The position numbers and the translations under genes were made by a program. DNA of 64,000 bases from Escherichia phage vB_EcoM_Goslar. Positions within the stretch are counted from its first letter, which is position 1; the number at the start of each line of letters is the position of its first letter. Shown piece by piece: positions 7,969-64,000 of this stretch. The notes under the pieces are model-generated. The model was not told the DNA's origin, searched no databases, and saw only the letters and a program-made list of their open reading frames with translations. The stretch is from sequence record NC_048170.1. One strand, given 5' to 3'.

Positions 7969-7983
7969 AACAAAATAGCGTGA

Positions 7984-8030
7984 GCATAACCCTCCTCCAA
8001 CCCGTAAGGGAAGGAGGAGGGAATATGCTG
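7984..8030. terminator. Bidirectional stem-loop between convergent genes (CCCTCCTCC / GGAGGAGGG arms, extended by CATAAC...ATGCTG flanks)
   Basis: Near-perfect inverted repeat read directly; lies between the + gene ending 7968 and the - gene ending 8031. Confidence 0.6.
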
Positions 8031-18469: not shown

Positions 18470-18504
18470 CAGGTCCCCCTACTTGTAATGAGTGGGTGAA
18501 CTCT

Positions 18505-18905
18505 CTTTAATTGCTGGAAACCTTTAATGCCCCTCCACACCACAACGCAATCCGAAAGGGTAAACGTGATGGTTGTCGAAAGACAGAAAAAAGTTGGAGG
18601 GGATTACCTATGTTGCAATAAAAGCCACCGCTTTCTTGGATAACGAAAGATGACGGTGGTACTAAGGGTAGAAGATAGAAATAAGGTAACCGTAGCAGCG
18701 AAGACCCTACGGACTGTCGTGACCGACTCGATGAGTTGGCGTGGTTAACACGGACAGGCTACGGGTAACGTTCAACGACCATCCGGTTGCGCGGAGTAGG
18801 AGAATTAGGATGTTCTCTGAAAAGGGAGAAGTCGGTCGAGGTGTTGTAGAAACACCATTCGGTTTGCTAACGCAAACCTAAGGCAGGCTAAGATATGGTC
18901 TATTT
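18505..18905 (+). ncRNA. Candidate group I intron catalytic core (P-, Q-, R-, S-like elements)
   Basis: R-like GTTCAACGACCA (~18770) and S-like AAGATATGGTC (~18890) with a compensatory P7 pair (GACCA/UGGUC versus consensus GACUA/UAGUC); P-like AATTGCTGGAAA (~18509); Q-like AACCGTAGCAGC (~18687); several hairpins; no ORF on either strand. Confidence 0.5.
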
Positions 18906-18948
18906 TTCGTTGTGTTCATGTATAGAAATTACTGAACCATCGTAAGAG

Positions 18949-19203
18949 CTCGATATATCTTCAAGCTATCCAAATGGGCAGATACTGCTCAATCTATCCA
19001 GAGCATGTGTTTTTCGTGAGCTCTCACGCATTGAGGGCGTCTCTGACTATCAATTCAGGAAGCTAGGTATCAACTTTATCACTGGAGGTAAAACGAACGC
19101 TGTAGACTTCTGTAGAATCGTTTATAAAGCGCCATCGATGTTTGAACTTTTAGAACATTTCGATGCGACGCGTCCAAAAGAGGAAGCGCGGACCATCGAA
19201 TGA
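18949..19203 (+). CDS. Candidate downstream exon: start-less open frame with polB motif-A-like sequence (LDISSSYPNGQ), stop at 19201-19203
   Basis: 86-codon open frame with no start codon until its last 21 codons; DISSSYP resembles DxxSLYPS; joining after 17186 to 18949 would be in frame and obey U at the 5' splice site and G at the intron 3' end. Confidence 0.3.
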   Translation, partial: LDISSSYPNGQILLNLSRACVFRELSRIEGVSDYQFRKLGINFITGGKTNAVDFCRIVYKAPSMFELLEHFDATRPKEEARTIE

Positions 19204-19245
19204 ATCAAGTATGTTGATCCTCGTTTAACAAAAAGAAAACGCATG

Positions 19246-19284
19246 CGAAGCCCCTCCCCCTGGCGGAAGCCGGAGGGAGGGGTG
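19246..19284 (-). terminator. Rho-independent terminator of the gene ending at 19289
   Basis: CCCCTCCC...GGGAGGGG stem with inner CTGGC/GCCGG pairing, followed on the minus strand by a T-rich tract (GTTTTCTTTTTGTT). Confidence 0.65.
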
Positions 19285-19288
19285 AGGT

Positions 19289-20334: not shown

Positions 20335-20363
20335 TGTTTCTTTTCCTGTTATAGTCAACATAT

Positions 20364-20398
20364 AGCCCTTCCCCGGCCTTGACGGCTAGGGAAGGGGC
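20364..20398 (-). terminator. Stem-loop (AGCCCTTCCCC / GGGAAGGGGCT) between tandem genes
   Basis: Inverted repeat read directly. Confidence 0.5.
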
Positions 20399-20423
20399 TA
20401 GGTACGTTATTTATGCTTCATTA

Positions 20424-29428: not shown

Positions 29429-29439
29429 TGCAACGGTAA

Positions 29440-29485
29440 CATAACCCTCTCCCAACCCAGCAGGGAAGGGAGAGGGCTTATGCTG
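29440..29485. terminator. Bidirectional stem-loop between convergent genes (CCCTCTCCC / GGGAGAGGG), same family as 7984..8030
   Basis: Inverted repeat; same AACCC...AGGGAA loop and ATGCTGTTAT flank as the 7984 element. Confidence 0.6.
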
Positions 29486-29493
29486 TTATGCTA

Positions 29494-39413: not shown

Positions 39414-39600
39414 TAATCAAATTAAAATGTAAAACGCCTCGAAACCGGAGTGCGATTCGAGGTAAACGTAAACAGTCCAGACGACCGCATAAAATTCCGC
39501 GCATATTGCCCCTCTACCCCGACAAAGCGAGATAGAGGGGAGGATAATACGATTATGCTACTACACTCCAAAGTTCATGGGGCGGTAATCGCCCCATCGG

Positions 39601-46414: not shown

Positions 46415-46461
46415 GATGATTTCCTTCTTTATTAGGATGATTACATTTAGTCAGTTTAACA

Positions 46462-46495
46462 GCATAAACCCTTCCTGCGTAAGGCAGGAAGGGCG
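46462..46495 (-). terminator. Stem-loop (ACCCTTCCTGC / GCAGGAAGGGC), CATAAACCC family
   Basis: Perfect 11-bp inverted repeat downstream of the gene ending at 46508. Confidence 0.6.
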
Positions 46496-46507
46496 TACGG
46501 ATTTGTT

Positions 46508-48168: not shown

Positions 48169-48302
48169 ATTTTAGAAACACCGCTAACGCGAGTGCGATT
48201 AATAACGCACGTACCCACATACCTCCTTGACAACTGTTATACAACATAAAGACCAGAGCGATGCCGCCCATATGCAGGCGGCACTTATCGAACAGTGTTG
48301 GT

Positions 48303-49824: not shown

Positions 49825-50778
49825 TCACGCTTTTGCTAAGTAGGGTTGGATCTCATTAATCCGTTTAACCACAACCTCAGGGAAAAGTTTGAGTATTTCA
49901 TCAGGTGGTATCGTACCTTCTGTCCAACGATAGCGTTCGACCATCTCGATGCGTGGACTCCCTCCGACATCAGCGATACGAAAGATACAGGCGATGCCTA
50001 AATCGAAGCATACGCTGTAAATATCTTCCGTACCTCCTTTATCAGCAAGTATTTTCGCAAAATGCTCGTTGTCAGGAAGAATGGCTAAATTACGGATACA
50101 CCAAACATTACTACCCATTTCTTCAAGTTTTGGGTAAGTTAAAGTGTGTCCGTATTGTGTTAACCATCGATGACTTTCGAGGTAGAAGTCCTTATCCCCT
50201 GGTCGATAACCCAATATCACTCCCGTGTAGAAGAGATTGGGCATATCGAGCAGTTCTCGAATCGTTGGGCCGGTATGCTCCCAGAGACAGATTTGTTTAC
50301 GGTCTATATCGTAATCTGTGACGTTACTCACCTCCCAACTTATCGTAAGTTCATCGGCAACACGCCAACCTAAAGCATGTTCGCCACCAAGCAGATTAAC
50401 AATGGCCGATATTTCATACTTGTCAAATACGCCTAAATTACGCGGTGGTTGCATCGTACGTAATGGCTCCCACAGCACACTGTAATCATAGAGCAAATGG
50501 CGACATAAACTTTTTGTTAGGGGTGTCTGTTCAGTGAAAAGTGGAAGAATCACCGTATCCAATAACGGGCGTAACGGATGATCGTTCGGTGGTAACGGGG
50601 CAGCCAGCCGACCTCCTTCTTTGGGGTAATCGAGACCAAACCCGTAACGCTCCGAAATAAGCGCAACCAGCACTTTTGCTACGCGGTTACGTAGCATGCG
50701 ATGGATATCATCACTGTAACTGAATTTCGGTTTATTTCCGCAAACGAAGGTGAAGTATCTAGGCGATAGCTTAACCAT
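49825..50778 (-). CDS. Hypothetical protein (~317 aa)
   Basis: ORF track 49825..50835; start trimmed to an internal Met to limit overlap. Confidence 0.75.
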   Translation of the reverse strand: MVKLSPRYFTFVCGNKPKFSYSDDIHRMLRNRVAKVLVALISERYGFGLDYPKEGGRLAAPLPPNDHPLRPLLDTVILPLFTEQTPLTKSLCRHLLYDYSVLWEPLRTMQPPRNLGVFDKYEISAIVNLLGGEHALGWRVADELTISWEVSNVTDYDIDRKQICLWEHTGPTIRELLDMPNLFYTGVILGYRPGDKDFYLESHRWLTQYGHTLTYPKLEEMGSNVWCIRNLAILPDNEHFAKILADKGGTEDIYSVCFDLGIACIFRIADVGGSPRIEMVERYRWTEGTIPPDEILKLFPEVVVKRINEIQPYLAKA

Positions 50779-50788
50779 AGTCTTTTCC

Positions 50789-51235
50789 TTAATCCAGATA
50801 GTACGTGATGGATAGGTCTTTTCCATCGAATACAATATCCGTGCAGTCGTGGATGGTCGGTAATACCATTTTTGCTGCTATTGGGACGTATGCTTGCAAC
50901 TCCATGAAGTTATTCATACGGAACGCACGACGTACCATCAACGGCGTTAGTGTAAACGTTACGCTAACGTTACCGCTTGGGAGCAGGTGCATTATCGCAT
51001 GCCCGTGATCGCACCAGCAATGGTTTTCGATCCATCCGGTGTAAATCAGAATATCTTTATCTTCGTCGTAATAAGCAATACCGGTCTGCTTTAAGTGGCT
51101 GGTAAATCGAGAGGCTTGCTCGTAGCCTGCACGCAACATTCGAGCAACCAGTCGAGTATTGTTAGCGATTCGATTCTGTTCGTTGGTTTTTGTGGTTTTG
51201 AAAATTTCGATACGTTCTGCTTTTGTAATTTGCAT
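50789..51235 (-). CDS. Hypothetical protein (148 aa)
   Basis: ORF track. Confidence 0.75.
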   Translation of the reverse strand: MQITKAERIEIFKTTKTNEQNRIANNTRLVARMLRAGYEQASRFTSHLKQTGIAYYDEDKDILIYTGWIENHCWCDHGHAIMHLLPSGNVSVTFTLTPLMVRRAFRMNNFMELQAYVPIAAKMVLPTIHDCTDIVFDGKDLSITYYLD

Positions 51236-51237
51236 GG

Positions 51238-51654
51238 TTACTGTCCTATTGAATTGTGTTTAAATAATTGGATAAATGGGGTACCAAATAAAGGGCTATA
51301 TGAATGTATTCGGTTCTCCTCCGATTCGTAATACTCGATAGGCCACGATATTGGTTTAGGTAGACGATCTAATGCTTGCAACACAGCGTGTTTAACATCA
51401 TTACTTTCGATCGGATACGGAAGTACCGTCGACGAACAGAACACGCGTGTTCGATGTAAATAAATGAGATGCTGCTGTAGCTTAGACAAACGCCTACGCT
51501 TGATTAAGAAACCGATTACGCGGCAATCGGGGTGATCGTAGTGATAACGTGCGCTATCGAAATAAGCCCGTTCCCCTTTAGCAATGAGATACTTTATCGC
51601 TTGCATGAAAGAGTAACGGCGTAATTCTCCATCAGCCAACATAACACGAATCAT
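51238..51654 (-). CDS. Hypothetical protein (138 aa)
   Basis: ORF track. Confidence 0.75.
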   Translation of the reverse strand: MIRVMLADGELRRYSFMQAIKYLIAKGERAYFDSARYHYDHPDCRVIGFLIKRRRLSKLQQHLIYLHRTRVFCSSTVLPYPIESNDVKHAVLQALDRLPKPISWPIEYYESEENRIHSYSPLFGTPFIQLFKHNSIGQ

Positions 51655-52253
51655 TACTTAGGTTCCAGTGTTGGTCCGAACAACCAGAATGTCAGACGCT
51701 GGTAAACCTGTTCGATGACTGCGGCTTCTGTTTGCTCTTCTAGTGCTTTCCCTTTCTTATGTTGTATTTCTGGCGGGATGTCGCCGTTGTAAACATACTC
51801 TGTTGAGAAGTCCCACGCCAGCCGTTTACCGAAAGTGGGTAAGAACACCTCTTCGAATCGGAACGCTTTCGAATTCCAATGAAGCAGCTGATCGGATTCA
51901 ACATGTAAAGCTTTATTACGTTTGCTTGGCATGTTTCCGAAGTACTGAACGATAGCTGATTTCATAACCTGATCTGCGAAGTCTTTGGCTTCGGCCTCAT
52001 CGAGGGGAGGCAGACGATGCGACAGATTCAGCTTGCGTTGCTCAACATCGATCTTACGCATTGCTTTAATCAAATCACCAGGAACGATTTTACCCTTATG
52101 GCCTTCCTGTCGATGTACGAAACACCCCTGGAATAGCACGCAAAGTTCTTGAGGTGCGGTACTTTCCATTCGTCCGTAAGCAACGATCACCGATCGACGA
52201 CGATCGATAACTTCACGGATAAACCGCGGCTCAGTAATACTCACCACTGTCAT
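51654..52253 (-). CDS. Hypothetical protein (199 aa)
   Basis: ORF track. Confidence 0.8.
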   Translation of the reverse strand: MTVVSITEPRFIREVIDRRRSVIVAYGRMESTAPQELCVLFQGCFVHRQEGHKGKIVPGDLIKAMRKIDVEQRKLNLSHRLPPLDEAEAKDFADQVMKSAIVQYFGNMPSKRNKALHVESDQLLHWNSKAFRFEEVFLPTFGKRLAWDFSTEYVYNGDIPPEIQHKKGKALEEQTEAAVIEQVYQRLTFWLFGPTLEPK

Positions 52254-52297
52254 TTAAAGCCCTCTTTATCTTTTTCCATTTCTCTTTACATAACCAC

Positions 52298-52990
52298 TTA
52301 AGACGTTGCCATCTTACCTTCCAGAGACTTCTTCGGTAAACCATGGATAACTCCTTCCGGGGTTAAGAACACACAGTCTGGATTCTGCGTTCGTGAACGG
52401 TCTTCTGGACTGTTCAACGAGAACAACAACGCAGAAATACCTTTTGTCCGATTTAACGTTGCGACGATCACATCAAGCTGCCGTAGCGCATCCGATACGG
52501 TTCGATGTGGAACGATTCGCGACTGTTTGAAGCTGGCTAACCGCCAAGTCTCGAACAAACAACGCAGTTTAAACACGTCGGACGGAATAGCTGTAGATCC
52601 CTGTTCGATAACCTCAACCCGATCAGCTTCAGGATAACCTACAGCAACCGCACTAAAGTGTCTTACCCCATTATGAAAATCATCGATAGACGCTTCAGCG
52701 TATTTACATACCGTACCAGAAACGACCATCACTTTTGCTAAACCGCGATAATTGATCGTTAACGGAATACGAAATACACGTAAAGCATGTTCCGGATTTA
52801 ATGAGACGTCATTCACTTTCGCAGATACCAGCGCACCTCGTTCATATCGAGCTTTGAACGGCAGCCCATTATAAACGGGATTGATCACAACGCCCCCTGG
52901 GGAGGCGTTAGCGTTAAGATGAGTGTTAAGCCAATCGGATACTTCCTGTCTGCTGGTTACGATCAACATAAAACGGTCCTCCATTTCTTT
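52298..52990 (-). CDS. Hypothetical protein (~230 aa; start trimmed)
   Basis: ORF track 52298..53104; its 5' extension overlaps the methyltransferase gene. Confidence 0.7.
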   Translation of the reverse strand, partial: KEMEDRFMLIVTSRQEVSDWLNTHLNANASPGGVVINPVYNGLPFKARYERGALVSAKVNDVSLNPEHALRVFRIPLTINYRGLAKVMVVSGTVCKYAEASIDDFHNGVRHFSAVAVGYPEADRVEVIEQGSTAIPSDVFKLRCLFETWRLASFKQSRIVPHRTVSDALRQLDVIVATLNRTKGISALLFSLNSPEDRSRTQNPDCVFLTPEGVIHGLPKKSLEGKMATS

Positions 52991-52994
52991 TCCT

Positions 52995-53645
52995 TCATTC
53001 ATGACGCATATCTTCCAAATCATCCTTTTGTTTTGTAAATTCTGATTGCTTGCGATAAACCGTCCATAAGTCGTATATACCGTGAAAGTTAAGATGGCGC
53101 GCATTTAAGTTAACGGTGAATTCTTCCACAGAGGCAAAATCCGAACGAAGCATCGAATGGAAGGTGTCATCTCCAGTGCAGCCTCCGTATCCTTCACCCT
53201 GATAGACCAAAAGCTGGTGAGGTTGGATACGTGCGGCAACCAATGCAGCTTGTGGTTCGTCGTAAGGCGGCCACGACAGTAGAATAACGTCGTACTGTGA
53301 AAGATCGATGTTTGTGTAGTCGGCTTGCTGGATATCATCAATAAACGGATGGGGATGTATTGCGGTGTCGTACGCGGTAACGTCCTCAACACCAAGTTTA
53401 CGTAACACGTAAGTCAGATAACCTGTCCCACAACCCAAGTCAGCGATGCGTCGTCCGTAACAGATGTTCGCTAACTGGAGCGCGGTATCCATGGTTAACA
53501 ACGACCATCCGATGTGCTGAGTGTATTCTTCACGCATATCCCATTGTTGTCGATACGGCATCGGTTCTAAGATAGCAGCAAGCTGCTGGTACGGCAACGG
53601 CATTTTGGTTTCGCCTTGCGTGAGTAATGCGATAACATCGTTCAT
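52995..53645 (-). CDS. SAM-dependent methyltransferase (Rossmann-fold class I)
   Basis: Motif I DLGCGTGYLT; start trimmed to MNDVIALL because a hairpin lies in the track's 5' extension. Confidence 0.65.
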   Translation of the reverse strand: MNDVIALLTQGETKMPLPYQQLAAILEPMPYRQQWDMREEYTQHIGWSLLTMDTALQLANICYGRRIADLGCGTGYLTYVLRKLGVEDVTAYDTAIHPHPFIDDIQQADYTNIDLSQYDVILLSWPPYDEPQAALVAARIQPHQLLVYQGEGYGGCTGDDTFHSMLRSDFASVEEFTVNLNARHLNFHGIYDLWTVYRKQSEFTKQKDDLEDMRHE

Positions 53646-53693
53646 TTTGTTTCCTTTTATCGGCATAAGCCCTCCCATGCCGGGAGGGTACAA

Positions 53694-54122
53694 TTATTCA
53701 TTTTCAATAACTTTAAGATTCGGTGTACCGAGCGTTTTCTTCACCAACGCTTCGGCAACACGTTTCTCGATGAAATCGGTTGCATTGCTTCCGTCTATCG
53801 TACGCATATCGCCACGGAAATTGCTGAAGACCATAAACAAGTCACAACCATCGATAGGTATCGCAAGATCATAACTGACTTGTGATGCTGTGAAATGGAC
53901 ACCCACGACAACGGCGGGAACGAATTTAACCGCTATGTTATCTCCTTCTTCTCCGGTTCCGAACGGAAGCTCAACACGATCACCGATAGAGAACTGTGAG
54001 ACATCATTAATCGCGTGAGTTAGTGCGATTCGTTGCATGTCGGCGATCTTTTCCTTATTCGCGTCGCAAGGTAGGTCCAAGACTTCTTCCAACGTGAAGA
54101 ATTTACGATCGAACCAGCTCAT
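53694..54122 (-). CDS. Hypothetical protein (142 aa)
   Basis: ORF track. Confidence 0.75.
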   Translation of the reverse strand: MSWFDRKFFTLEEVLDLPCDANKEKIADMQRIALTHAINDVSQFSIGDRVELPFGTGEEGDNIAVKFVPAVVVGVHFTASQVSYDLAIPIDGCDLFMVFSNFRGDMRTIDGSNATDFIEKRVAEALVKKTLGTPNLKVIENE

Positions 54123-54123
54123 G

Positions 54124-54657
54124 TTAAGCTCCTTTGTGTTTTACGGACGATGTTAACCAGGACGATCTTACCGTGAAACCCTCAGACTCGTAGAACGCCT
54201 GGGCTTCGTCGTTATCAGCACGAACATCCAGACCGATAGAATGACCACCGCATCGGTAAGCGATGTTACGTGCTTCATTCATCAAGGCGTGGCCGATCCC
54301 GCGTCCACGGTATTCCGGTTTTACAATAATCGATGTAACATCGTGAATACCCATATGGCTCTCTGTATTCACTTCCAAGAGACCCACTGGTACTGAAGCG
54401 ATAGCATCGATCATAACGACCAACTTTGCGGTGTCTGGTAAACGCTTTTCTAATTCTAAAGCATCGTACTCGCGTTTTAAATCGGGGATATTCTCAAACA
54501 TAAACGTGGTAGCCCATGCCTCTGATTCTACATCGTCGAGAATACGGTACAGCTCACGAATCTGTCGTTTATGTGGGTAAAGGTGTGGATCGGCAGCCGT
54601 TGAGGCGATAACGCAATAGAACGGTCGTTCATTAATAACTACTGTTTTGATGCTCAT
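54124..54657 (-). CDS. GNAT-family N-acetyltransferase
   Basis: Acetyl-CoA-binding motif IIVKPEYRGRGIGHALMNEA. Confidence 0.7.
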   Translation of the reverse strand: MSIKTVVINERPFYCVIASTAADPHLYPHKRQIRELYRILDDVESEAWATTFMFENIPDLKREYDALELEKRLPDTAKLVVMIDAIASVPVGLLEVNTESHMGIHDVTSIIVKPEYRGRGIGHALMNEARNIAYRCGGHSIGLDVRADNDEAQAFYESEGFTVRSSWLTSSVKHKGA

Positions 54658-55160
54658 GCTAAAATTCCCTCATTACCTAACAGTCGATTACGATGACGTC
54701 GGTACATTTGACAAAGTGTTGTGATTTGATAATGTTTGTTGTAACGTACCTCGATACGTTTTTGCACCTCTTTCCATGGAAGTTTATCGTATTGCCGATA
54801 ACGATGGATTTCATTTAACATACGAAGACGAGTAGGATCGGTGTTCTTTATCGTCGTGAGCTTCACACGTTGATATCCACGCTGTAGTCCCGATTCGGAA
54901 TACGTGACGTCAAACTCATCTTGAATGATGGTAATGATCTCCCGCCACCGACGGTTCTCGCCGTCACGTAAATGGACAACCCGTGATAAGATATCGTTCC
55001 GATTACGATGACTCAGTTTAATGTTAAGCATTGAAGCAATCGCGCTAATTGCTCTCTGACTCCGTCCTAACGCTTCACCTATTTCTTTCGATGTCATGAC
55101 GCCCGCGTTTCGGCGTATGAATGCGATTTCGGTTGTTGTGTATTCTTTACCTGCTGCCAT
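54654..55160 (-). CDS. Myb/SANT-like HTH DNA-binding protein, paralog 6 of a tandem array
   Basis: Repeated W/Y...EI...R...I modules; C-terminal WREIITIIQDEF...LQRGY and WKEVQKRIEVRY...LCQMY. Confidence 0.6.
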   Translation of the reverse strand: MAAGKEYTTTEIAFIRRNAGVMTSKEIGEALGRSQRAISAIASMLNIKLSHRNRNDILSRVVHLRDGENRRWREIITIIQDEFDVTYSESGLQRGYQRVKLTTIKNTDPTRLRMLNEIHRYRQYDKLPWKEVQKRIEVRYNKHYQITTLCQMYRRHRNRLLGNEGILA

Positions 55161-55675
55161 TTCTTACCACGTGTGTTATAATAGTAACGCTGACAAAGAT
55201 GTGTGTGATGGTACTCCCGTTTGAACTCGACGCTGATAATGCGAGCAACTTCTCTCCAGTTAACTCCTTCATGCCGGAGTGCTGTAATACGGTCTGAAAT
55301 TTTGCACCATTCATCTGGATCGTATCGTCGTAGCTTGAGTCGTCGTATTACGGAGGCGACACTCGCTCTCGATCGGCCAAGATGATTTGACAGTTGTTTA
55401 ACCGAGTATCTGTGGATATTGTCACGAATATAGGAAATCTCGTTGTTCGTATATGCCTCATTGGTTCTCGACGAAGGGAACAGCATATACAACTTATTCT
55501 TAATCGCGCTTTCTGTGCGTTGAAATACAGAAGCCAGCTCACTAACCGGTGGTCTGGGTATCTGGTCCGCGTAATTCTCGAGGCGTGAGAGTTCCTCATC
55601 TGTCCAGCGACGGTATTTGCGCACGGGCAACTCCTTTGTTTTTCGTGTAGTAACACCAACGTTGATACAACGCAT
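55094..55675 (-). CDS. Myb/SANT-like HTH DNA-binding protein, paralog 5 (start uncertain)
   Basis: WTDEELSRL...; ...SVKQLSNHLGRSRASVASVIRRL; ...VNWREVARIISVEF...LCQRYY; track start 55726 overlaps paralog 4. Confidence 0.55.
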   Translation of the reverse strand: MRCINVGVTTRKTKELPVRKYRRWTDEELSRLENYADQIPRPPVSELASVFQRTESAIKNKLYMLFPSSRTNEAYTNNEISYIRDNIHRYSVKQLSNHLGRSRASVASVIRRLKLRRYDPDEWCKISDRITALRHEGVNWREVARIISVEFKREYHHTHLCQRYYYNTRGKKWQQVKNTQQPKSHSYAETRAS

Positions 55676-56099
55676 GTTTATTCGTCGTAATCCCAAATTT
55701 AACAACAACGTCGTATGTGATAACATTCCAATTTTGGGTAACGTTAAGTCGTTCCGCGATAAACGCGATAATCGCTTCCCGTTCTTGCTTTGTTAACGCA
55801 CGACGAATTCCATTAAGCCGTATAAACTGACGAACCGAGTCATACGAACGGTTTAAATCGTACGCAATCTCCCTCAACGATTTTTGTTTGATTACGGACT
55901 TGATGTACGCGCGTTCTTCTTCCGTATACGGTCGATGCTTTTGGCGTTGACGTATTCCCAAACGTCCCAGACGCGCGTCGATGCTGGCGCGTGTTCGTCC
56001 TGTCCGTTGTGCGATTTCATCAATCGTCAGCGACGTGTTCAAGTACAGGTGTATAACATCTTTTAACTCATCGTTACGCCACGGCCGAGGTCGTCCCAT
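55596..56099 (-). CDS. Myb/SANT-like HTH DNA-binding protein, paralog 4
   Basis: WRNDELKDVIHLY...IDEIAQRTGRTRASIDARL; YTEEERAYI...LREIAYDLNRSYDSVRQF; QNWNVITYDVVVKF...LYQRW. Confidence 0.6.
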   Translation of the reverse strand: MGRPRPWRNDELKDVIHLYLNTSLTIDEIAQRTGRTRASIDARLGRLGIRQRQKHRPYTEEERAYIKSVIKQKSLREIAYDLNRSYDSVRQFIRLNGIRRALTKQEREAIIAFIAERLNVTQNWNVITYDVVVKFGITTNKHALYQRWCYYTKNKGVARAQIPSLDR

Positions 56100-56577
56100 C
56101 TTGTATCCCTCTTTTCTTTCTATGATGCCACCAACGCTGATAAACAGCCTGCTTCGTACGTGTTATACCGAAATGCGCATTAACCCGTTCAGCAATGTGG
56201 TGCCAATCCTGTGTTTCTTCTAACAATGTATCAACGAAGGCTATGAAGATCTTAGTATCATCCTCGCTTAACCGCTTGAAACCATGACGGTGTGCTATCG
56301 TTCTAATACTGTTTGGATCCCTGTTTAAATCGCGTGCGAGTTGTTTGTAACTTTTGTGTTTGCAGTGCACTCTGATATATTCCAACTCATCGACACTGAA
56401 ACGTTTATGCGGTTTACGACGTTCAACATTTAAGTATATCAACCTCGATTTAATTGCACCGTACGTTGTTTCCATGATTTCTGCGATTTCACGGATTTTT
56501 AATTTCGGGTGACGATAGTACAATTCCAGCAACTGTTCATCATCCTTACGATTCCATCGTCGTACTGGAGGTTTCAC
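56074..56577 (-). CDS. Myb/SANT-like HTH DNA-binding protein, paralog 3
   Basis: RWNRKDDEQLLELY...IREIAEIMETTYGAIKSRL; ...QDWHHIAERVNAHF...VYQRWW. Confidence 0.6.
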   Translation of the reverse strand: MKPPVRRWNRKDDEQLLELYYRHPKLKIREIAEIMETTYGAIKSRLIYLNVERRKPHKRFSVDELEYIRVHCKHKSYKQLARDLNRDPNSIRTIAHRHGFKRLSEDDTKIFIAFVDTLLEETQDWHHIAERVNAHFGITRTKQAVYQRWWHHRKKRGIQDGTTSAVA

Positions 56578-56590
56578 AACGAGATTTCTC

Positions 56591-57058
56591 CTATTCTACG
56601 CGTTTTAATGCTTGAGTGTAGTAGAGGGCATGAACACCGCTTAACGTGTAATGGGTGTTAAATTCGTTATTGATGATATTCTGTATTCTCTTCCAGGTGT
56701 TATTCTCTTTTCTAAGGGTGTGTATTCGATGATAGATCATCTCTCGACGTTGCGCTTTGCATGCAACAATACCGTAACGGTAGCAGAGTTTAGCGATTGC
56801 GTCCACGCTACGGTTGAACATCGCTGCAGCTTCTTTCACGCTATGTGTCTTAAGATAATCGGCTAACATCACACGTTCTTCGAAACAACAATAGCGGTGA
56901 CGCGACATGAGTTTCCAGCGCTTGCGATTGCGGTTAATTCGACCTTGAACAGAGCCTTCGGTTCGGTCAAGCCGTGCCGCAATCTCTTGCATCGGGATAC
57001 CGTTTCGGTACAGGGTAATCAATATCGCGTCTTCTTCGGGTGTCCAGTCCTTGACCAT
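56591..57058 (-). CDS. Myb/SANT-like HTH DNA-binding protein, paralog 2
   Basis: DWTPEEDAILITLY...MQEIAARLDRTEGSVQGRINRNRKRW; ...NTWKRIQNIINNEF...LYYTQ. Confidence 0.6.
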   Translation of the reverse strand: MVKDWTPEEDAILITLYRNGIPMQEIAARLDRTEGSVQGRINRNRKRWKLMSRHRYCCFEERVMLADYLKTHSVKEAAAMFNRSVDAIAKLCYRYGIVACKAQRREMIYHRIHTLRKENNTWKRIQNIINNEFNTHYTLSGVHALYYTQALKRVE

Positions 57059-57070
57059 AGCGCCACCCCA

Positions 57071-57391
57071 TCAACGTCTTACTTTAAGCGTTATCTTGTT
57101 TCGAAAACAATAACACCGGATGGCGTGTACGCTACGATTCATTATTTCAGCAATCTCTTTTAGCGTATGTTTCTTTGCAAGCGTGGCAACCCTAACCCTT
57201 TCTTCTGGCGTGTATACTCCCCCGCGAGGTGGTAGATCACCCCATCGTTTCCTCAACTTGAGGTAACGTGCGCGAATAGAGCACGGTGTTCGATTCATGC
57301 TTCGCGCTACTTCTTTATAGCTCGCTTTTGGTGATGTACTAAGAATAAGCAGCAACGTTTCATCTTCTTTATCTGTCCAACGTTTACCCAT
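57071..57391 (-). CDS. Myb/SANT-like HTH DNA-binding protein, paralog 1 (two repeats, 106 aa)
   Basis: RWTDKEDETLLLIL...YKEVARSMNRTPCSIRARY; YTPEERVRVATL...LKEIAEIMNRSVHAIRCY. Confidence 0.6.
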   Translation of the reverse strand: MGKRWTDKEDETLLLILSTSPKASYKEVARSMNRTPCSIRARYLKLRKRWGDLPPRGGVYTPEERVRVATLAKKHTLKEIAEIMNRSVHAIRCYCFRNKITLKVRR

Positions 57392-57395
57392 TTTC

Positions 57396-60473
<3,078 letters not shown>

Positions 60474-60553
60474 AAAATTGTCAAAATGTACATCAGCATA
60501 ACGCCCGTGCCCGCCCGCGATGGGAGGGACACAGGCAATACGCTTTTATTTCG

Positions 60554-61162
60554 TCAAGACTTCACAACACATTCGACTTCGTCGTTCATATAAGCTTCGT
60601 ATAACGACAGCACTTCCTTCATTTTAATTTCAGGTAGCGCAACGGAACGAATCGCTTTCAGGATATTCCGTGTTTGATGGTGTTTAACCTTCGCTTCACG
60701 TAGTTTACAGAATTGACGGATGCAGGTATTAACCTTACCCCCTTCCGCACGTTCGAGGGCGACATGCAGTTTCAGGTCCAGTAATACTTCCGTGAGTTCC
60801 TGGGTGGCAGGATCGTTACGAATAAGCCGCACTGTACGTTCATCCGGATTCAGCATCTCGAGATACTGAAGCTTGATATGTTCAGGTACGGGTTTCGTGT
60901 TCATCATGATGGCATCAAGCTGTTCCTTAACACCCAACTCATTGAACACGTAACGTTCGATGTTTACGACGTGTGCTTTTCCTGACTCGCCATAAACCGC
61001 CATCGCACGATAGTCATCAAACAACACAGCATACAACAAATCCTGTTCCGGTCCGATGGTACCATCGATGAGCTTCGGCGCATGCTTCTTCAGGAAGCCA
61101 TAGCGAATCGCCTCATCCGGCATGAGCGTCCACGCATTAACGGGTTGCTTTACGAGTTCCAT
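60554..61162 (-). CDS. Hypothetical protein (~200 aa)
   Basis: ORF track 60554..61186. Confidence 0.75.
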   Translation of the reverse strand: MELVKQPVNAWTLMPDEAIRYGFLKKHAPKLIDGTIGPEQDLLYAVLFDDYRAMAVYGESGKAHVVNIERYVFNELGVKEQLDAIMMNTKPVPEHIKLQYLEMLNPDERTVRLIRNDPATQELTEVLLDLKLHVALERAEGGKVNTCIRQFCKLREAKVKHHQTRNILKAIRSVALPEIKMKEVLSLYEAYMNDEVECVVKS

Positions 61163-61457
61163 GTAACACCTCATCAAGATTATCACTTACACCTGGCGGT
61201 ACCACGATACCGGTACGAATCACAGCAGCAACTTCCTGCATGCCTTTACCTTTCAACGCGTAGGTTTCATATACCGTATTACGTCGCGTCGTTAATCCAA
61301 CAAATTTACATACAACCATGTTGTTTTCTGAAAGGTAGGCGGTGTCGAGTTCGCCGTGCAACAATTCTTTTTCTTTGGTATCAATGCCTAATAACGCAAT
61401 TTGATAAGCAGAAAGTTTCCAATAGCGCATGTTATCACCCAAACTGTTAAGAAGCAT
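61137..61457 (-). CDS. Hypothetical protein (106 aa)
   Basis: ORF track. Confidence 0.6.
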   Translation of the reverse strand: MLLNSLGDNMRYWKLSAYQIALLGIDTKEKELLHGELDTAYLSENNMVVCKFVGLTTRRNTVYETYALKGKGMQEVAAVIRTGIVVPPGVSDNLDEVLHGTRKATR

Positions 61458-61863
61458 CCTGTTTAATGTCGATGACTATTTCCGTTCGAACCGGATTAGT
61501 CAGCACAGCACGCATGCGTTCAAGCATCATTGGGTTATCCGTAACCACCACATCGGCGTAACACAATGGATGACTTTCGAACGCTTCAGTGTCGCTTACT
61601 AACAGAACACCCATCACATTTACGTATTGCGGTATGCGTCCACGGATGCGTTGCCACATGTCTTGAGTAAGGTCTTCGTTTTCTAATGCGACCACGACAA
61701 CAGGACTGATGTTTACCGGGAAACGCGGGTGCACCGTACGACGAAATGTTACCCAGTTTTCGACGTGGGATAATGCAAGTTCAAGAGAACAGCATTTTGG
61801 AGAAATCTGTATGTTTATTTGCTGAATCAATGAAAGGGGGTTTTGTACAGTCGCTTCAGCCAT
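61447..61863 (-). CDS. Hypothetical protein (138 aa)
   Basis: ORF track. Confidence 0.75.
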   Translation of the reverse strand: MAEATVQNPLSLIQQINIQISPKCCSLELALSHVENWVTFRRTVHPRFPVNISPVVVVALENEDLTQDMWQRIRGRIPQYVNVMGVLLVSDTEAFESHPLCYADVVVTDNPMMLERMRAVLTNPVRTEIVIDIKQDAS

Positions 61864-62841
61864 TTACTTTTTCCTGAAAATCAATGTCGGTAAGCCGTTT
61901 CTTACAGCATAATACAACACTAAGAGGTTAATCTTGCCTGCGGATACCGTAAGCATTTTACGACGACGTGGTAAACTAACCGGTACGGTAGATGCCATCG
62001 TTGCGCTGTTCTTGAACGTTTGGGAATAACGTCGCAGCGACGCTTCACCTAACAATGGAAGGAACAGATCCTCGGTAAGAATATCATCGCAGATATACGT
62101 AATCGCAAGTAACGGCGGATTCCACTCGTTCAGGAACTCGAAAATCTCGTTTGCGATACCCAACGCATTATTAGGAAGCGGAACCTCACGAACGTATTTC
62201 TGATTGCCTTTATCCAGCAGGATTCTTGACATACAGTAATCGTGGATTATACCCGCGACGTCATCCGCTGTTTCTGCGTTCTGCATCAACGCCTGTGCTT
62301 CTTCCCAGGTCAGCTGACGTTTTGTTTCGTAGTAGGTTGGTTTCAAAACCGCGTAAAAATCATGGATCAAACGACCAACATCCCCACGAGTTTTTGTTGC
62401 TAACGCGACTGCGTACGCTTTCTTCTCCGCATCCGTTAAGATCTGATTACGCCACAGTTCGTATTCGTCTAACAGCTCGGTGTATTTGGCTGTCCATTCA
62501 GAGGAAAGATAATAACCAATACTGTCAATCAATGCGTGCGTTAAAACACCCAGACGCTCGCGTCGGGGATCGACCGACGGCTCATAGACAAAAGGTAGCT
62601 TCGGTTTTTCAAAGCCATTGGCTACGACGGTATCTGAAAAAGCGTTAGCGAAAACACCCATCGGTTTCCATGACGTAAGGAGATCCTGATATAGCATTGG
62701 ATGAACGTTATTAATCGCTGTGAGTTTATCATCGAAAAGACTTACGCTTGGATGTTCGGCATTCGCAAGCTCAAAATAAATTCTTTCGAGCAACGCCTTT
62801 ACCGCATCGCGTGTCTTATCGATTGGGCCAACAGAAGCCAT
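61864..62841 (-). CDS. Hypothetical protein (325 aa)
   Basis: ORF track; abuts the downstream gene with no gap. Confidence 0.8.
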   Translation of the reverse strand: MASVGPIDKTRDAVKALLERIYFELANAEHPSVSLFDDKLTAINNVHPMLYQDLLTSWKPMGVFANAFSDTVVANGFEKPKLPFVYEPSVDPRRERLGVLTHALIDSIGYYLSSEWTAKYTELLDEYELWRNQILTDAEKKAYAVALATKTRGDVGRLIHDFYAVLKPTYYETKRQLTWEEAQALMQNAETADDVAGIIHDYCMSRILLDKGNQKYVREVPLPNNALGIANEIFEFLNEWNPPLLAITYICDDILTEDLFLPLLGEASLRRYSQTFKNSATMASTVPVSLPRRRKMLTVSAGKINLLVLYYAVRNGLPTLIFRKK

Positions 62842-62855
62842 GTAAATTATCCTCG

Positions 62856-63122
62856 TTAAAAAGTACCCATGATCGATAGGGCAATATGGTCTTTGTTCAC
62901 ACGCGCATTTAACGACATATCGAGACCGCTTTTCTTAATATGCCAGCGTGCCACCAGTTCCGGTTGGTCAACGGAATACAGCCCTTCTCGATGTTGATTC
63001 AACCATTTAGCAATCGGATGCAATTTATCGGGATTGACCACACCCAATTCCAAGCCACCCGGGGTTAATGGTTTAGAATAAAAGTCAAGTGCGTTCCGTA
63101 AAAAGTCATCCTCGATACTCAT
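62856..63122 (-). CDS. Hypothetical protein (88 aa)
   Basis: ORF track. Confidence 0.65.
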   Translation of the reverse strand: MSIEDDFLRNALDFYSKPLTPGGLELGVVNPDKLHPIAKWLNQHREGLYSVDQPELVARWHIKKSGLDMSLNARVNKDHIALSIMGTF

Positions 63123-63311
63123 CGCAGCATACCCACCATGCCGATTACGGCAAACAGTATACCGACCGCACTATACGCAAGCAGCGCTTTAGCAACCCAA
63201 GATTTTATTTCCGTATACTCTTCATTATTCACCATGTCTCACCTCGTTCGGTTATTGTCTGATCTCATACCTTTACTTAAGCATATCCCCGTCATTAAGA
63301 CGGGGTGTTTA

Positions 63312-63686
63312 TCACCAGAGACGATTACCTTCCTCGTCCCACCAAGCAATCGCTCGTGTCGACTCGAATGTGTTAGGGCGTAACGTCATGCCCTTGCGGT
63401 CAACGATTAACCGCAACTCAGTACCGAACCACTCAATCGAGATAAACAAACCCTTCCGAATGATTGCTTGATAACCTGATAGCCGCTCAAAGAGTCGTTG
63501 AAAGATCTCATCATGCCCACACGACACTAATGCTTCTGAATAGCGTCGCATCGATTTTGCATCGCTAGGTAAACGTGTTTTACAATCCCACCATAACACA
63601 GCGTACATCAGTGCGGCATTACGCAATCGTAACGATTGAACTGGTGTTAGCTGCCGTCCTTCAACATCATCGATAATAACATACAT
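63312..63686 (-). CDS. Hypothetical protein (124 aa)
   Basis: ORF track. Confidence 0.7.
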   Translation of the reverse strand: MYVIIDDVEGRQLTPVQSLRLRNAALMYAVLWWDCKTRLPSDAKSMRRYSEALVSCGHDEIFQRLFERLSGYQAIIRKGLFISIEWFGTELRLIVDRKGMTLRPNTFESTRAIAWWDEEGNRLW

Positions 63687-63692
63687 CGCATC

Positions 63693-63947
63693 TTATTCCG
63701 CGCTTGTTTCCTTAACATGGACACATTCCGCATCGATAGTCACACCGGTAGAACGATGGGTCTCGTTGGTAGAATCAAATCCGCTGTTGAACAACACTGC
63801 GAATGTGTTATTATCCATACGAGCAAAGGTCTCCGCAATACGATCGGGATGAAAATCAGTGCGGCTGATGGTCGATTTCACAAAAACTCCTATAAACAAT
63901 TTAATTATTGGTATTAAGATTAAAGCAGGATCTGCGGACAGCAGCAT
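63693..63947 (-). CDS. Possible small protein (84 aa); competes with the + strand ORF 63717..63917
   Basis: ORF track only. Confidence 0.4.
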   Translation of the reverse strand: MLLSADPALILIPIIKLFIGVFVKSTISRTDFHPDRIAETFARMDNNTFAVLFNSGFDSTNETHRSTGVTIDAECVHVKETSAE

Positions 63948-64000
63948 GATTCGTAACCACCTTCATGCGGTAACGTATTGCTGGTGTCAGGCCAAACGAG

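What the first reader, a model, noticed from the sequence alone, without database searches (positions are those of the whole stretch)
54654..57391. Tandem array of six paralogous Myb/SANT-like HTH proteins
Six consecutive minus-strand genes (106-210 aa) encode proteins built from two or three copies of an approximately 50-aa module with the spacing of Myb/SANT repeats (W/Y-x-x-E/D-E-x-x-L ... EIA ... R-S/T ... I-R ... Y/W). The copies are divergent and some overlap. Such an expansion of DNA-binding proteins next to a GNAT acetyltransferase and a methyltransferase suggests host takeover or transcriptional reprogramming under diversifying selection. I do not recognise this as a described phage family.
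Basis: partly seen in the sequence, partly recalled or inferred. Interest (0 to 1): 0.8.

Follow-up and report, generated by a model that had tools for sequence, protein, structure and literature searches.

The report
Six D5-like DNA-binding paralogs in Goslar
Phage Goslar, a nucleus-forming jumbo phage of E. coli, carries six neighbouring genes (gp119 to gp114) for small basic proteins built from two or three helix-turn-helix modules; they are distant relatives of the T5 D5 DNA-binding regulator and are probably phage DNA-binding regulators, which is modestly interesting rather than a new kind of system.

Summary
Six adjacent minus-strand genes at 54654-57391 are true paralogs (24-38% identity, BLASTP E down to 1e-29). 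Each is made of tri-helical HTH modules: A-B (p6), A-B-C (p5, p4, p3, p2) and B-C-C (p1). An exact protein look-up shows the window is Escherichia phage vB_EcoM_Goslar and the genes are gp119 to gp114.

The family is not unrecognised. All six hit PHROG 323, "transcriptional regulator, D5-like". Phage T5 D5 is the archetype of that family, and it also sits directly after an NAD-dependent ligase. RefSeq and UniProt already call gp119 and gp117 Myb-like.

The A/B module is a very common bacterial and phage repeat. Only the C module and the A-B-C layout are specific to this phage group.

"Diversifying selection" is not supported: dN/dS is 0.05-0.35. However, four members (p6, p4, p3, p2) occur as deeply divergent alleles (39-50% identity) in backbones that are otherwise 90-97% identical. 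Recognition helices are conserved within each orthologue group and differ between paralogs.

Best reading: six dsDNA-binding regulators with different specificities, acting on phage DNA. Host takeover is untested. Novelty is moderate.

The parts
57071..57391 (-). p6 = Goslar gp119, 106 aa, modules A-B only. In the L002, L007 and L008 lineages the orthologue is 152-157 aa with A-B-C.
   Evidence: ORF. Pfam Myb_DNA-binding 34.1 bits, above the gathering score. PHROG 323 E 1e-18. Exact match to YP_009820804.1, named 'SANT/Myb domain-containing protein'. Orthologue architecture.
56591..57058 (-). p5 = Goslar gp118, 155 aa, modules A-B-C. It is a conserved member (90-93% aa identity across lineages) but is absent from the L008/L009 lineage.
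   Evidence: (Sigma70_r4_2 34.4 bits).
56074..56577 (-). p4 = Goslar gp117, 167 aa, GTG start, modules A-B-C. It is a variable member (47% aa identity to the L007 allele).
   Evidence: AlphaFold model with pLDDT 83 and nine helices (10-48, 62-98, 105-161)..
55596..56099 (-). p3 = Goslar gp116, 167 aa, modules A-B-C. It overlaps the end of p4 by 26 nt and is the most variable member (39% aa identity to the L007 allele).
55094..55624 (-). p2 = Goslar gp115, 176 aa from the GTG at 55624, modules A-B-C plus a tail. The 210-aa ORF reaching 55726 is an over-extension. p2 overlaps the end of p3 by 29 nt and is a variable member (46% aa identity to the L007 allele).
   Evidence: start codon GTG, protein begins VRKYRRW; AAGGAG Shine-Dalgarno; gp115 is 176 aa.
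54654..55160 (-). p1 = Goslar gp114, 168 aa, modules B-C-C. It overlaps the tail of p2 by 67 nt out of frame and is a conserved member (89-95% aa identity). GenBank annotates only the 147-aa short form starting at 55097.
   Evidence: The long form and its ATG are conserved in L002, L005 and L007 (with a variant N-terminus) and in P0010-12. HMM gives two domains, B-C plus C. In the AlphaFold model, helix 1 of module B (residues 9-18) lies in the part the short form omits. The short form equals YP_009820799.1.
58090..60165 (-). NAD-dependent DNA ligase, upstream in the same gene string. In relatives that lack orf235, the first array gene overlaps its stop codon. T5 has the same ligase-then-D5 order.
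   Evidence: PHROG 3869 E 1e-189. Gene tables. T5 region.
57396..58103 (-). orf235, an acidic protein of unknown function. It is present only in the Goslar/L005 lineage, sits between the ligase and p6, and coincides with loss of p6's C module.
   Evidence: No Pfam or PHROG hit. Presence and absence across loci.
54124..54657 (-). GNAT acetyltransferase immediately downstream, with a 4-nt ATGA overlap with p1.
   Evidence: Pfam Acetyltransf_1 E 7e-15. PHROG 3810. Overlap.
52995..53645 (-). Putative class-I SAM methyltransferase-like protein. All Pfam hits are below their thresholds.
   Evidence: Pfam Methyltransf_23 22 bits against a cutoff of 27, MTS 19.3 against 23. PHROG 19090, unknown function.
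60474..60553 (-). Intergenic GC-rich hairpin followed by GTTATGCTG. It is the only punctuation mark upstream of the string orf103-ligase-orf235-array-GNAT.
   Evidence: No sigma70-like promoter or intrinsic terminator signal above chance inside the string.

Best explanation
Goslar gp119-gp114 are six co-transcribed, translationally coupled paralogs of the T5 D5 type. They are small, very basic proteins.

Each is a string of two or three independent three-helix HTH modules joined by short basic linkers. Each protein most likely binds double-stranded DNA by placing the third (recognition) helix of successive modules into neighbouring major grooves, as c-Myb R2R3, the Tc3 and Pax bipartite domains, and the archaeal Cbp2 do.

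The recognition helices differ between paralogs but are kept within each orthologue group. The six therefore probably read six different sequences.

Their most likely targets are on the phage genome, inside the EPI vesicle or the phage nucleus. There they would tune transcription timing and/or replication, by analogy with T5 D5, which is needed for replication, late transcription and early shut-off.

Shown here: homology, module fold, operon structure, purifying selection, allele mosaic. Inferred: DNA binding. Speculative: sequence specificity, phage DNA as the target, and a regulatory role.
For: - All six hit PHROG 323, D5-like, at E 1e-10 to 1e-19. T5 D5 is the archetype of that family (E 1e-71).
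- Profile-to-sequence hhalign against D5 gives 90% probability, E 1.7e-6, over 98 columns.
- The gene order is the same as in T5: NAD ligase, then the D5-like gene overlapping the ligase end.
- The AlphaFold models are 3 x 3 helices.
- A PDB sequence-profile search finds Cbp2, a two-HTH CRISPR-repeat-binding protein (E 2e-9), and c-Myb (E 2e-4).
- pI is 9.8-10.5, against 4.6-5.6 for the neighbouring proteins.
- dN/dS is 0.05-0.35.
- The gene order is kept in four further lineages.
- Recognition helices are conserved within orthologue groups (for example module B helices 2 and 3 at 66-85% in p3 and p4) but are only 22-36% identical between paralogs.
- The genes sit in an operon-like string with the ligase.
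- A jumbo-phage review notes that phiKZ-like phages lack sigma factors and may use their own transcription factors with their RNA polymerases (PMC7824862).
Against: - There are no binding data.
- No repeated DNA motif that could serve as an operator was found near the array.
- The only enriched intergenic motif in the window is the hairpin-linked TTATGCT.
- From memory of the older literature (not checked here), T5 D5 is a cooperative dsDNA binder with little sequence preference, so the analogy does not imply specificity.
- Similarity to D5 is at module level only. The architectures differ.
- If four of the six were global regulators of phage promoters, replacing them with alleles only 39-50% identical in a 90-97% identical backbone would be hard to tolerate, unless specificity is retained or the targets are local.
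- The expression class is unknown, because the per-gene Goslar RNA-seq table is not held.
Confidence: 0.5

Rival explanations
1. Host takeover. The proteins would bind host DNA or host RNA polymerase (for example as sigma region-4 mimics at the beta flap) to shut off or reprogram host transcription, acting together with the neighbouring GNAT and the putative methyltransferase.
For: - Sigma70_r4_2 hits above the gathering score in p3, p4 and p5.
- PGAP names some p5 relatives 'sigma-70 region 4 domain-containing protein'.
- The GNAT is adjacent.
- T5 D5 is mildly toxic when expressed alone in E. coli (bioRxiv 10.64898/2026.07.11.737809).
- The allele diversity could reflect adaptation to different hosts (E. 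coli, Salmonella, Shigella, Enterobacter).
Against: - Sigma r4 and Myb scores are comparable and reflect the generic HTH fold.
- There is no sigma region 2 and no known RNA polymerase-binding element.
- phiKZ-type phages transcribe with their own RNA polymerases, independently of the host enzyme (PMC4666361).
- Adjacency to a GNAT is not evidence of joint function.
Confidence: 0.15
2. Non-specific architectural proteins. The six would be D5-like cooperative dsDNA coats that organise, compact or protect replicating phage DNA, or modulate polymerase and ligase access at nicks, rather than sequence-specific regulators.
For: - D5-family membership and synteny with the ligase.
- Strong positive charge.
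- No candidate operator repeats.
- Allele swaps are tolerated, which is easier to explain if binding is not sequence-specific.
Against: - Six distinct paralogs, each with its own conserved recognition helices kept across lineages, are not expected for a generic coat.
- A single abundant protein, as in T5, would suffice.
Confidence: 0.15
3. Conflict-related function. The proteins would be nuclease-less derivatives of the DNA-binding domains of homing endonucleases that occupy target sites (anti-homing, or competition between phages). Alternatively, they would be DNA-binding proteins whose variable alleles reflect escape from host sensors that detect D5-like HTH proteins.
For: - The A-B pair also matches the N-terminal parts of HNH endonuclease PHROGs 1891, 8446 and 7545.
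- BFVD fold hits include phage endonucleases.
- Four genes behave as exchangeable cassettes with sharp boundaries.
- T5 D5 is the trigger of a type IX retron through its HTH.
Against: - Position and order are fixed in all lineages, so there is no sign of mobility.
- Selection is strongly purifying.
- Variation is not concentrated in the DNA-contacting helices.
- There is no nuclease partner nearby.
Confidence: 0.1

Closest known systems
Phage T5 D5 protein (T5.118) / PHROG 323 'transcriptional regulator, D5-like'
   Same: There is a significant profile match for all six proteins. Both are strings of short HTH modules. Both genes lie directly after an NAD-dependent ligase and overlap its end. 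The T5 record annotates D5 as a DNA-binding protein needed for replication and late transcription.
   Different: D5 is a single 255-aa protein with four modules. Here there are six proteins of 106-176 aa with 2-3 modules, matching only profile positions about 81-270. Module C has no counterpart detected outside this phage group. The host phage is a nucleus-forming jumbo phage with its own RNA polymerases. No function has been tested.
Myb/SANT repeats (PF00249, PF13921), e.g. c-Myb R1R2R3
   Different: Only the first Trp is kept in modules A and B, so there is no triad. Four of the six proteins fail the Myb thresholds. C modules scored alone fall below threshold (20.8 against 22.9; 2 of 18 members hit).
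GcrA DNA-binding domain (PDB 5yiu) and phage GcrA-like regulators
   Different: Pfam GcrA scores 14.1 bits against a cutoff of 26.9. There is no GcrA C-terminal sigma-binding domain.
Cbp2, archaeal CRISPR-repeat-binding protein (PDB 2lvs)
   Same: It is the best PDB sequence match to the A-B pair (E 2e-9, 91 profile positions). It has two HTH domains joined by a basic linker and binds a DNA repeat.
   Different: It is archaeal, has two modules only, and has no C module. The similarity is architectural and there is no functional link.
Expansion of Myb-type HTH transcription factors in Bacillus jumbo phage G (Iyer et al. 2021, PMC7824862)
   Same: It is a precedent for a lineage-specific expansion of Myb-type HTH proteins in a jumbo phage.
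   Different: It concerns a different phage group (group 3, no phage RNA polymerase), RsfA-like proteins, and was not compared at sequence level here.
N-terminal tandem HTH DNA-binding regions of phage HNH homing endonucleases (PHROGs 1891, 8446, 7545)
   Same: The A-B pair aligns with their N-terminal ~100 residues (E down to 2e-8).
   Different: No nuclease domain is present in any of the six proteins.

Membership tests
PHROG 323 (T5 D5-like transcriptional regulators) | Significant match to the family profile | tested here: met
   All six match at E 8e-10 to 8e-19. More distant orthologues P0067 and P0139 also match. T5 D5 itself scores E 1e-71.
PHROG 323 (T5 D5-like transcriptional regulators) | Full-length colinearity with D5 (about 255 aa, four HTH modules) | tested here: not met
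   Matches cover only profile positions about 81-270 of 319. hhalign covers 98 columns, modules A-B only. The proteins are 106-176 aa.
PHROG 323 (T5 D5-like transcriptional regulators) | dsDNA binding, and a requirement for replication, late transcription and early shut-off | not testable with these tools
   The only source is the annotation note in the T5 record.
Myb/SANT domain (PF00249 / PF13921) | Score above the Pfam gathering threshold | tested here: inconclusive
   Met for p6 (34.1 against 24.4; 30.4 against 22.9) and for p4 on PF13921 (27.3 against 22.9). Not met for p1, p2, p3 and p5.
Myb/SANT domain (PF00249 / PF13921) | Three regularly spaced Trp or aromatic residues forming the core of each repeat | tested here: not met
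   Alignments A1 and A2 show that only W8 is invariant in module A, and module B has Y/F at that position. The 2nd and 3rd positions are I/A and L/Y. Only p4- and p3-type C modules keep the W...W pattern.
Myb/SANT domain (PF00249 / PF13921) | Three-helix bundle with an HTH formed by helices 2 and 3 | tested here: met
Sigma-70 family (region 4, PF08281 / PF04545) | Region 4 HTH match above threshold | tested here: met
   p3 28.0, p4 27.6 and p5 34.4 bits against a cutoff of 25.7.
Sigma-70 family (region 4, PF08281 / PF04545) | Presence of region 2 (core binding and -10 recognition) | tested here: not met
   No Sigma70_r2 hit in any of the six at E <= 1. The proteins consist only of HTH modules.
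GcrA cell-cycle regulator (PF07750) | Pfam match above threshold, including the C-terminal sigma-interacting domain | tested here: not met
   p5 scores 14.1 bits against a cutoff of 26.9, on the N-terminal 40 residues only. The structural match is limited to the DNA-binding domain.
HNH homing endonucleases with N-terminal HTH tandem (PHROG 1891 / 8446) | HNH nuclease domain | tested here: not met
   Matches are confined to the N-terminal ~100 profile positions. There is no HNH Pfam hit.

The most novel reading that the evidence does not exclude
The six proteins could be the unidentified promoter-selectivity or temporal-switch factors of the sigma-less multisubunit RNA polymerases of nucleus-forming phages. 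In that reading, the two conserved members (gp118, gp114) would serve core functions. The four cassette-like variable members (gp119, gp117, gp116, gp115) would define exchangeable regulatory 'identities' that differ between otherwise near-identical Goslar-like phages, with consequences for compatibility during co-infection or for evasion of host sensors of D5-like HTH proteins.
Probability: 0.1. Interest if true: 0.8.

Novelty: new variant of a known kind. Interest (0 to 1): 0.4.

Why it matters
Goslar is a model nucleus-forming phage of E. coli. How chimalliviruses switch between gene classes is still open: the phiKZ RNA polymerase paper states that the middle-to-late specificity switch is unexplained (PMC4666361). 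A 2025 review of nucleus-forming phages does not use the term "transcription factor" at all.

A conserved set of six distinct DNA-binding proteins next to the replication ligase gives concrete candidates to test with tools already in use on Goslar, such as CRISPRi-ART, GFP localisation and RNA-seq.

The conserved-versus-cassette pattern within one array is also a tidy natural experiment on how phage DNA-binding proteins diversify.

If the proteins turn out to be ordinary accessory regulators, the result is still a useful re-annotation: family assignment to D5-like proteins, the gp114 start codon, and the module map.

Tried and rejected
- **BLAST against annotated collections.** Megablast of the array against the phage, plasmid and E. 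coli genome collections gave no match, and tblastn of p6 gave none. This looked like an unknown phage, but Goslar is simply missing from those collections. The exact look-up settled identity.
- **Diversifying selection.** Rejected by Nei-Gojobori dN/dS of 0.05-0.35.
- **Variation focused on recognition helices.** Rejected. These helices are among the better conserved elements within orthologue groups.
- **Recent duplication or DNA-level repeats or operators in 50000-64000.** None beyond chance-level short matches.
- **Sigma70-type promoters and intrinsic terminators.** Counts are at or below shuffled expectation.
- **phiKZ early-promoter core TATATTAC.** One occurrence against 2.2 expected.
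- **TTATGCT as a phage promoter.** Orientation relative to the hairpins and to transcription is mixed, and the motif occurs at convergent gene junctions, so it may be part of terminators. Left open.
- **Module C as a known domain.** No PDB hit and no database homologues outside the group. Only p4-type copies are faintly Myb-like.
- **Ligase-adjacent D5-like genes in other phages with similar ligases.** Absent in Moabite, PhAER-1 and BONAISHI.
- **Goslar expression class from the literature.** The per-gene RNA-seq table and other supplements are not held. No paper in the library mentions Goslar together with gp115-gp119.


Full report
**What is there.**

The interval 54654-57391 holds six consecutive minus-strand ORFs. 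Numbered in the direction of transcription they are:

| Name | Coordinates | Length | Note |
|---|---|---|---|
| p6 | 57071-57391 | 106 aa | |
| p5 | 56591-57058 | 155 aa | |
| p4 | 56074-56577 | 167 aa | GTG start |
| p3 | 55596-56099 | 167 aa | |
| p2 | 55094-55624 | 176 aa | GTG start |
| p1 | 54654-55160 | 168 aa | |

Orthologues start at the equivalent MRKCRRW. The window has GTG at 55624, preceded by AAGGAG. The GenBank protein is 176 aa.

Intergenic distances are 4 to 13 nt, or the genes overlap: p4/p3 by 26 nt, p3/p2 by 29 nt, p2/p1 by 67 nt, and p1/GNAT by 4 nt. No promoter-like or terminator-like signal above shuffled expectation lies inside the string. The genes therefore look co-transcribed and translationally coupled with the upstream NAD-dependent ligase (58090-60165; PHROG 3869, E 1e-189) and the downstream GNAT (54124-54657; Pfam E 7e-15).

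**They are real paralogs.**

BLASTP among the six gives colinear alignments at 24-38% identity, with E-values down to 1e-29. Adjacent genes are the closest pairs (p6-p5, p4-p3, p2-p1), as expected from successive tandem duplications. There is no DNA-level similarity, so the duplications are old.

An HMM of the family finds only these six ORFs in all six frames of the 64-kb window. It finds p1, which was left out of the model, at E 8e-20 as two domains.

**Module anatomy.**

Alignments A1 and A2 resolve three modules.
- Module A: RRWTxxEDxxL...EIA...RT..SI..R.
- Module B: YTxEE..YI...S.KEIA..LNRS..S(V/I)R.
- Module C: R..I..RI..LR.E..W..I...IN.EF...Y....L.QRYY.

The architectures are A-B for p6, A-B-C for p5, p4, p3 and p2, and B-C-C for p1.

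hhalign shows that A and B are homologous (96%, E 2e-9). C is only weakly related to B (58%) and shows no signal against A.

AlphaFold2 models of p4 (pLDDT 83) and p1 (pLDDT 82) each give nine helices grouped as three three-helix units joined by linkers. The low pTM values (0.43 and 0.51) fit beads on a string.

All six proteins have pI 9.8-10.5 and 18-25% Lys+Arg. Their neighbours have pI 4.6-5.6.

**What fold and family.**

In Pfam the proteins sit inside the HTH clan without a single clear home.
- p6 passes Myb_DNA-binding (34.1 bits against 24.4).
- p4 passes Myb_DNA-bind_6 (27.3 against 22.9).
- p3, p4 and p5 pass Sigma70_r4_2.
- p1 and p2 pass nothing.

Whole-chain Foldseek against the PDB is not significant. 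Its top hits are nevertheless all tandem HTH DNA binders: c-Myb R1R2R3, SNAPc4, Reb1, Tc3, tandem homeodomains, Pax6 and Cbp2.

A PDB sequence-profile search gives the two-HTH CRISPR-repeat-binding protein Cbp2 (2lvs, E 2e-9) and c-Myb (E 2e-4).

"Myb/SANT-like HTH" is therefore a fair description of the fold. The canonical tryptophan triad is not kept in A and B, and membership of the Pfam Myb families is met by only two of the six.

**It is a described phage family.**

All six hit PHROG 323, "transcriptional regulator, D5-like", at E 8e-10 to 8e-19. Phage T5 D5 (T5.118, 255 aa) is the archetype of that PHROG (E 1e-71). D5 is itself a string of four such modules. It aligns with the A-B pair at 90% hhalign probability (E 1.7e-6).

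In T5 the D5 gene follows the NAD-dependent ligase genes ligA and ligB and overlaps the end of ligB. In the Goslar relatives that lack orf235, the first array gene overlaps the ligase stop in the same way. Other phages with similar ligases (Moabite, PhAER-1, BONAISHI) have no such neighbour. The shared order may be an old module or a coincidence.

The T5 record describes D5 as a DNA-binding protein required for replication and late transcription and involved in shut-off. A 2026 preprint shows that its HTH triggers a type IX retron and that it is mildly toxic on its own.

**How common are the modules.**

A profile search of 1.84 billion representative proteins returns 15,576 hits at E <= 1e-3 and 2,946 at E <= 1e-10. 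Nearly all are long proteins carrying 3-10 tandem copies of the A-B pair. The A/B module is thus a very common bacterial and phage repeat.

Full-length A-B-C matches, by contrast, are a handful of small proteins, all from this phage group. A profile of module C alone finds nothing convincing in the PDB or in the 5.8-billion-protein collection. Only p4-type copies look faintly Myb-like when scored alone (20.8 bits, below threshold).

**Source.**

Exact look-up identifies the six proteins as Goslar_00119 to Goslar_00114 of Escherichia phage vB_EcoM_Goslar (237,307 bp). This agrees with two earlier observations:
- the three Goslar proteins of 176, 155 and 106 aa that top the BFVD fold search;
- the phiKZ-type split RNA polymerase beta subunit elsewhere in the window.

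RefSeq calls gp119 "SANT/Myb domain-containing protein", and UniProt calls gp119 and gp117 "Myb-like domain-containing". The rest are annotated as hypothetical.

No paper in the searchable library mentions Goslar together with gp115-gp119. The 2025 review of nucleus-forming phages does not use the term "transcription factor".

GenBank annotates gp114 as 147 aa. Three lines of evidence favour the 168-aa form:
- The upstream ATG and the sequence EYTTTEIAFIRRNAG are conserved in other lineages.
- That sequence aligns with helix 1 of module B.
- AlphaFold folds it as that helix (residues 9-18).

**Evolution.**

Five further lineages were recovered from metagenomes and from isolate assemblies: L002/L003, L005, L007 and L008/L009. 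All carry the array in the same place and order.

There are three structural differences between lineages:
- The L008 lineage lacks p5.
- p6 is A-B-C in L002, L007 and L008.
- In Goslar and L005, p6 is A-B, and an extra acidic gene (orf235, 57396-58103) sits between the ligase and p6.

dN/dS is 0.05-0.35 wherever dS is not saturated, the same range as the ligase and the GNAT. There is therefore no signal of diversifying selection.

Divergence is very uneven, however. Amino-acid identity between Goslar and L007:

| Group | Genes and identity | dS |
|---|---|---|
| Flanking genes | ligase 93%, GNAT 97% (flanks overall 90-97%) | 0.25-0.45 |
| Conserved array members | p5 93%, p1 91% | as flanks |
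| Variable array members | p6 50%, p4 47%, p3 39%, p2 46% | saturated |

A sliding-window map shows sharp drops from about 90% to about 50% nucleotide identity. The drops fall exactly over p6 (plus orf235) and over p4-p3-p2, with p5 and p1 as conserved islands between them.

Because dS is raised together with dN, this is replacement by long-diverged alleles through recombination. It is not fast protein evolution.

Within each orthologue group the helix 2 and helix 3 regions, especially of module B, are among the best-conserved parts. The same elements are only 22-36% identical between paralogs. Each paralog therefore keeps its own DNA-reading surface.

**Most likely mechanism.**

The evidence supports six dsDNA-binding proteins. 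Each would contact DNA through two or three HTH modules in series, and each would have a different specificity.

By homology and gene order with T5 D5, by position in a DNA-metabolism operon, and because phiKZ-type phages transcribe with their own sigma-less RNA polymerases, I favour a role on phage DNA in regulating transcription timing and/or replication (confidence 0.5). DNA binding itself is much more likely than that, but it remains inferred.

The rivals are:
- host-directed takeover (0.15);
- non-specific architectural coating in the manner of D5 (0.15);
- conflict-related roles linked to homing endonuclease DNA-binding domains or to immune sensing of D5-like proteins (0.1).

No computation available here separates these. 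The decisive data are expression class, localisation and binding-site mapping.

**Verdict.**

- The Myb/HTH reading is largely right.
- The "undescribed family" claim is wrong at the PHROG level.
- The "diversifying selection" claim is wrong by dN/dS.
- The "host takeover" claim is untested.

What is new is the six-fold tandem expansion of D5-like proteins in a nucleus-forming phage, the group-specific C module, and the split of the array into conserved members and cassette-like variable members.

Noticed in passing
window 1-64000: The window is Escherichia phage vB_EcoM_Goslar (exact protein matches), yet Goslar is absent from the BLAST 'phages' collection. Goslar-like contigs of about 236-248 kb occur in many isolate assemblies of E. 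coli, several Salmonella enterica serovars, Shigella flexneri and Enterobacter hormaechei. The protein clusters hold 76-362 distinct sequences. This hints at frequent carriage or contamination of cultures by this lytic jumbo phage.
   Followed up: partly
window 54654-55160: Goslar gp114 is annotated as 147 aa (start at 55097). The conserved upstream ATG at 55160 gives 168 aa and restores helix 1 of its first HTH module. That 5' part overlaps the 3' end of gp115 by 67 nt in another frame, and both frames are conserved in the L002 and L005 lineages.
   Followed up: yes
window 57396-58103: orf235 is an acidic protein (pI 5.0) with no Pfam or PHROG match. It is present only in the Goslar/L005 lineage, between the ligase and gp119. 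Where it is present, gp119 lacks the C module that its orthologues in L002, L007 and L008 have. This looks like an insertion or replacement event.
   Followed up: partly
window about 61432; L007:1379-2206; L002:426-1250: Relatives carry a Dam-like methyltransferase (Pfam MethyltransfD12, about 275 aa, split into two ORFs in some contigs) upstream of the ligase operon. Goslar has a deletion of about 0.8 kb at this point, and its two flanking ORFs have no methyltransferase hit.
   Followed up: partly
window 60474-60553, 46415-46507, 48176-48302, 7969-8030, 29429-29493, 20362-20423, 39414-39600: There is a recurrent intergenic element: a GC-rich hairpin (of the type CCCTCTCCC...GGGAGAGGG) flanked by TTATGCT or its complement AGCATAA. 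Seven of the 11 TTATGCT occurrences in the window lie in the roughly 6% of DNA that is intergenic. The motif contains TATG, the phiKZ nvRNAP late-promoter core. However, its orientation relative to transcription is mixed and it also occurs at convergent gene junctions, so it may belong to terminators.
   Followed up: partly
window 53694-54122: The 142-aa gene just downstream of the GNAT is another allele hot spot. It is only about 62-64% identical to its counterpart in all four other lineages, with a local drop to 43-52% nucleotide identity.
   Followed up: no
L008:6529-7032: The gp116 orthologue in this contig is an intact ORF that the source's gene caller missed. The same lineage (L008/L009) lacks a gp118 orthologue altogether.
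   Followed up: yes
window 18470-19288: An 819-nt stretch has no ORF of 60 aa or more and no tRNA. It was not examined further.
   Followed up: no
L011 (phage T5) 7365-10078: In T5 the order ligA-ligB-D5, with D5 overlapping the end of ligB, mirrors the order ligase-then-first-array-gene in Goslar relatives. This could be an old ligase plus D5-like module shared by very different phages, or a coincidence.
   Followed up: partly
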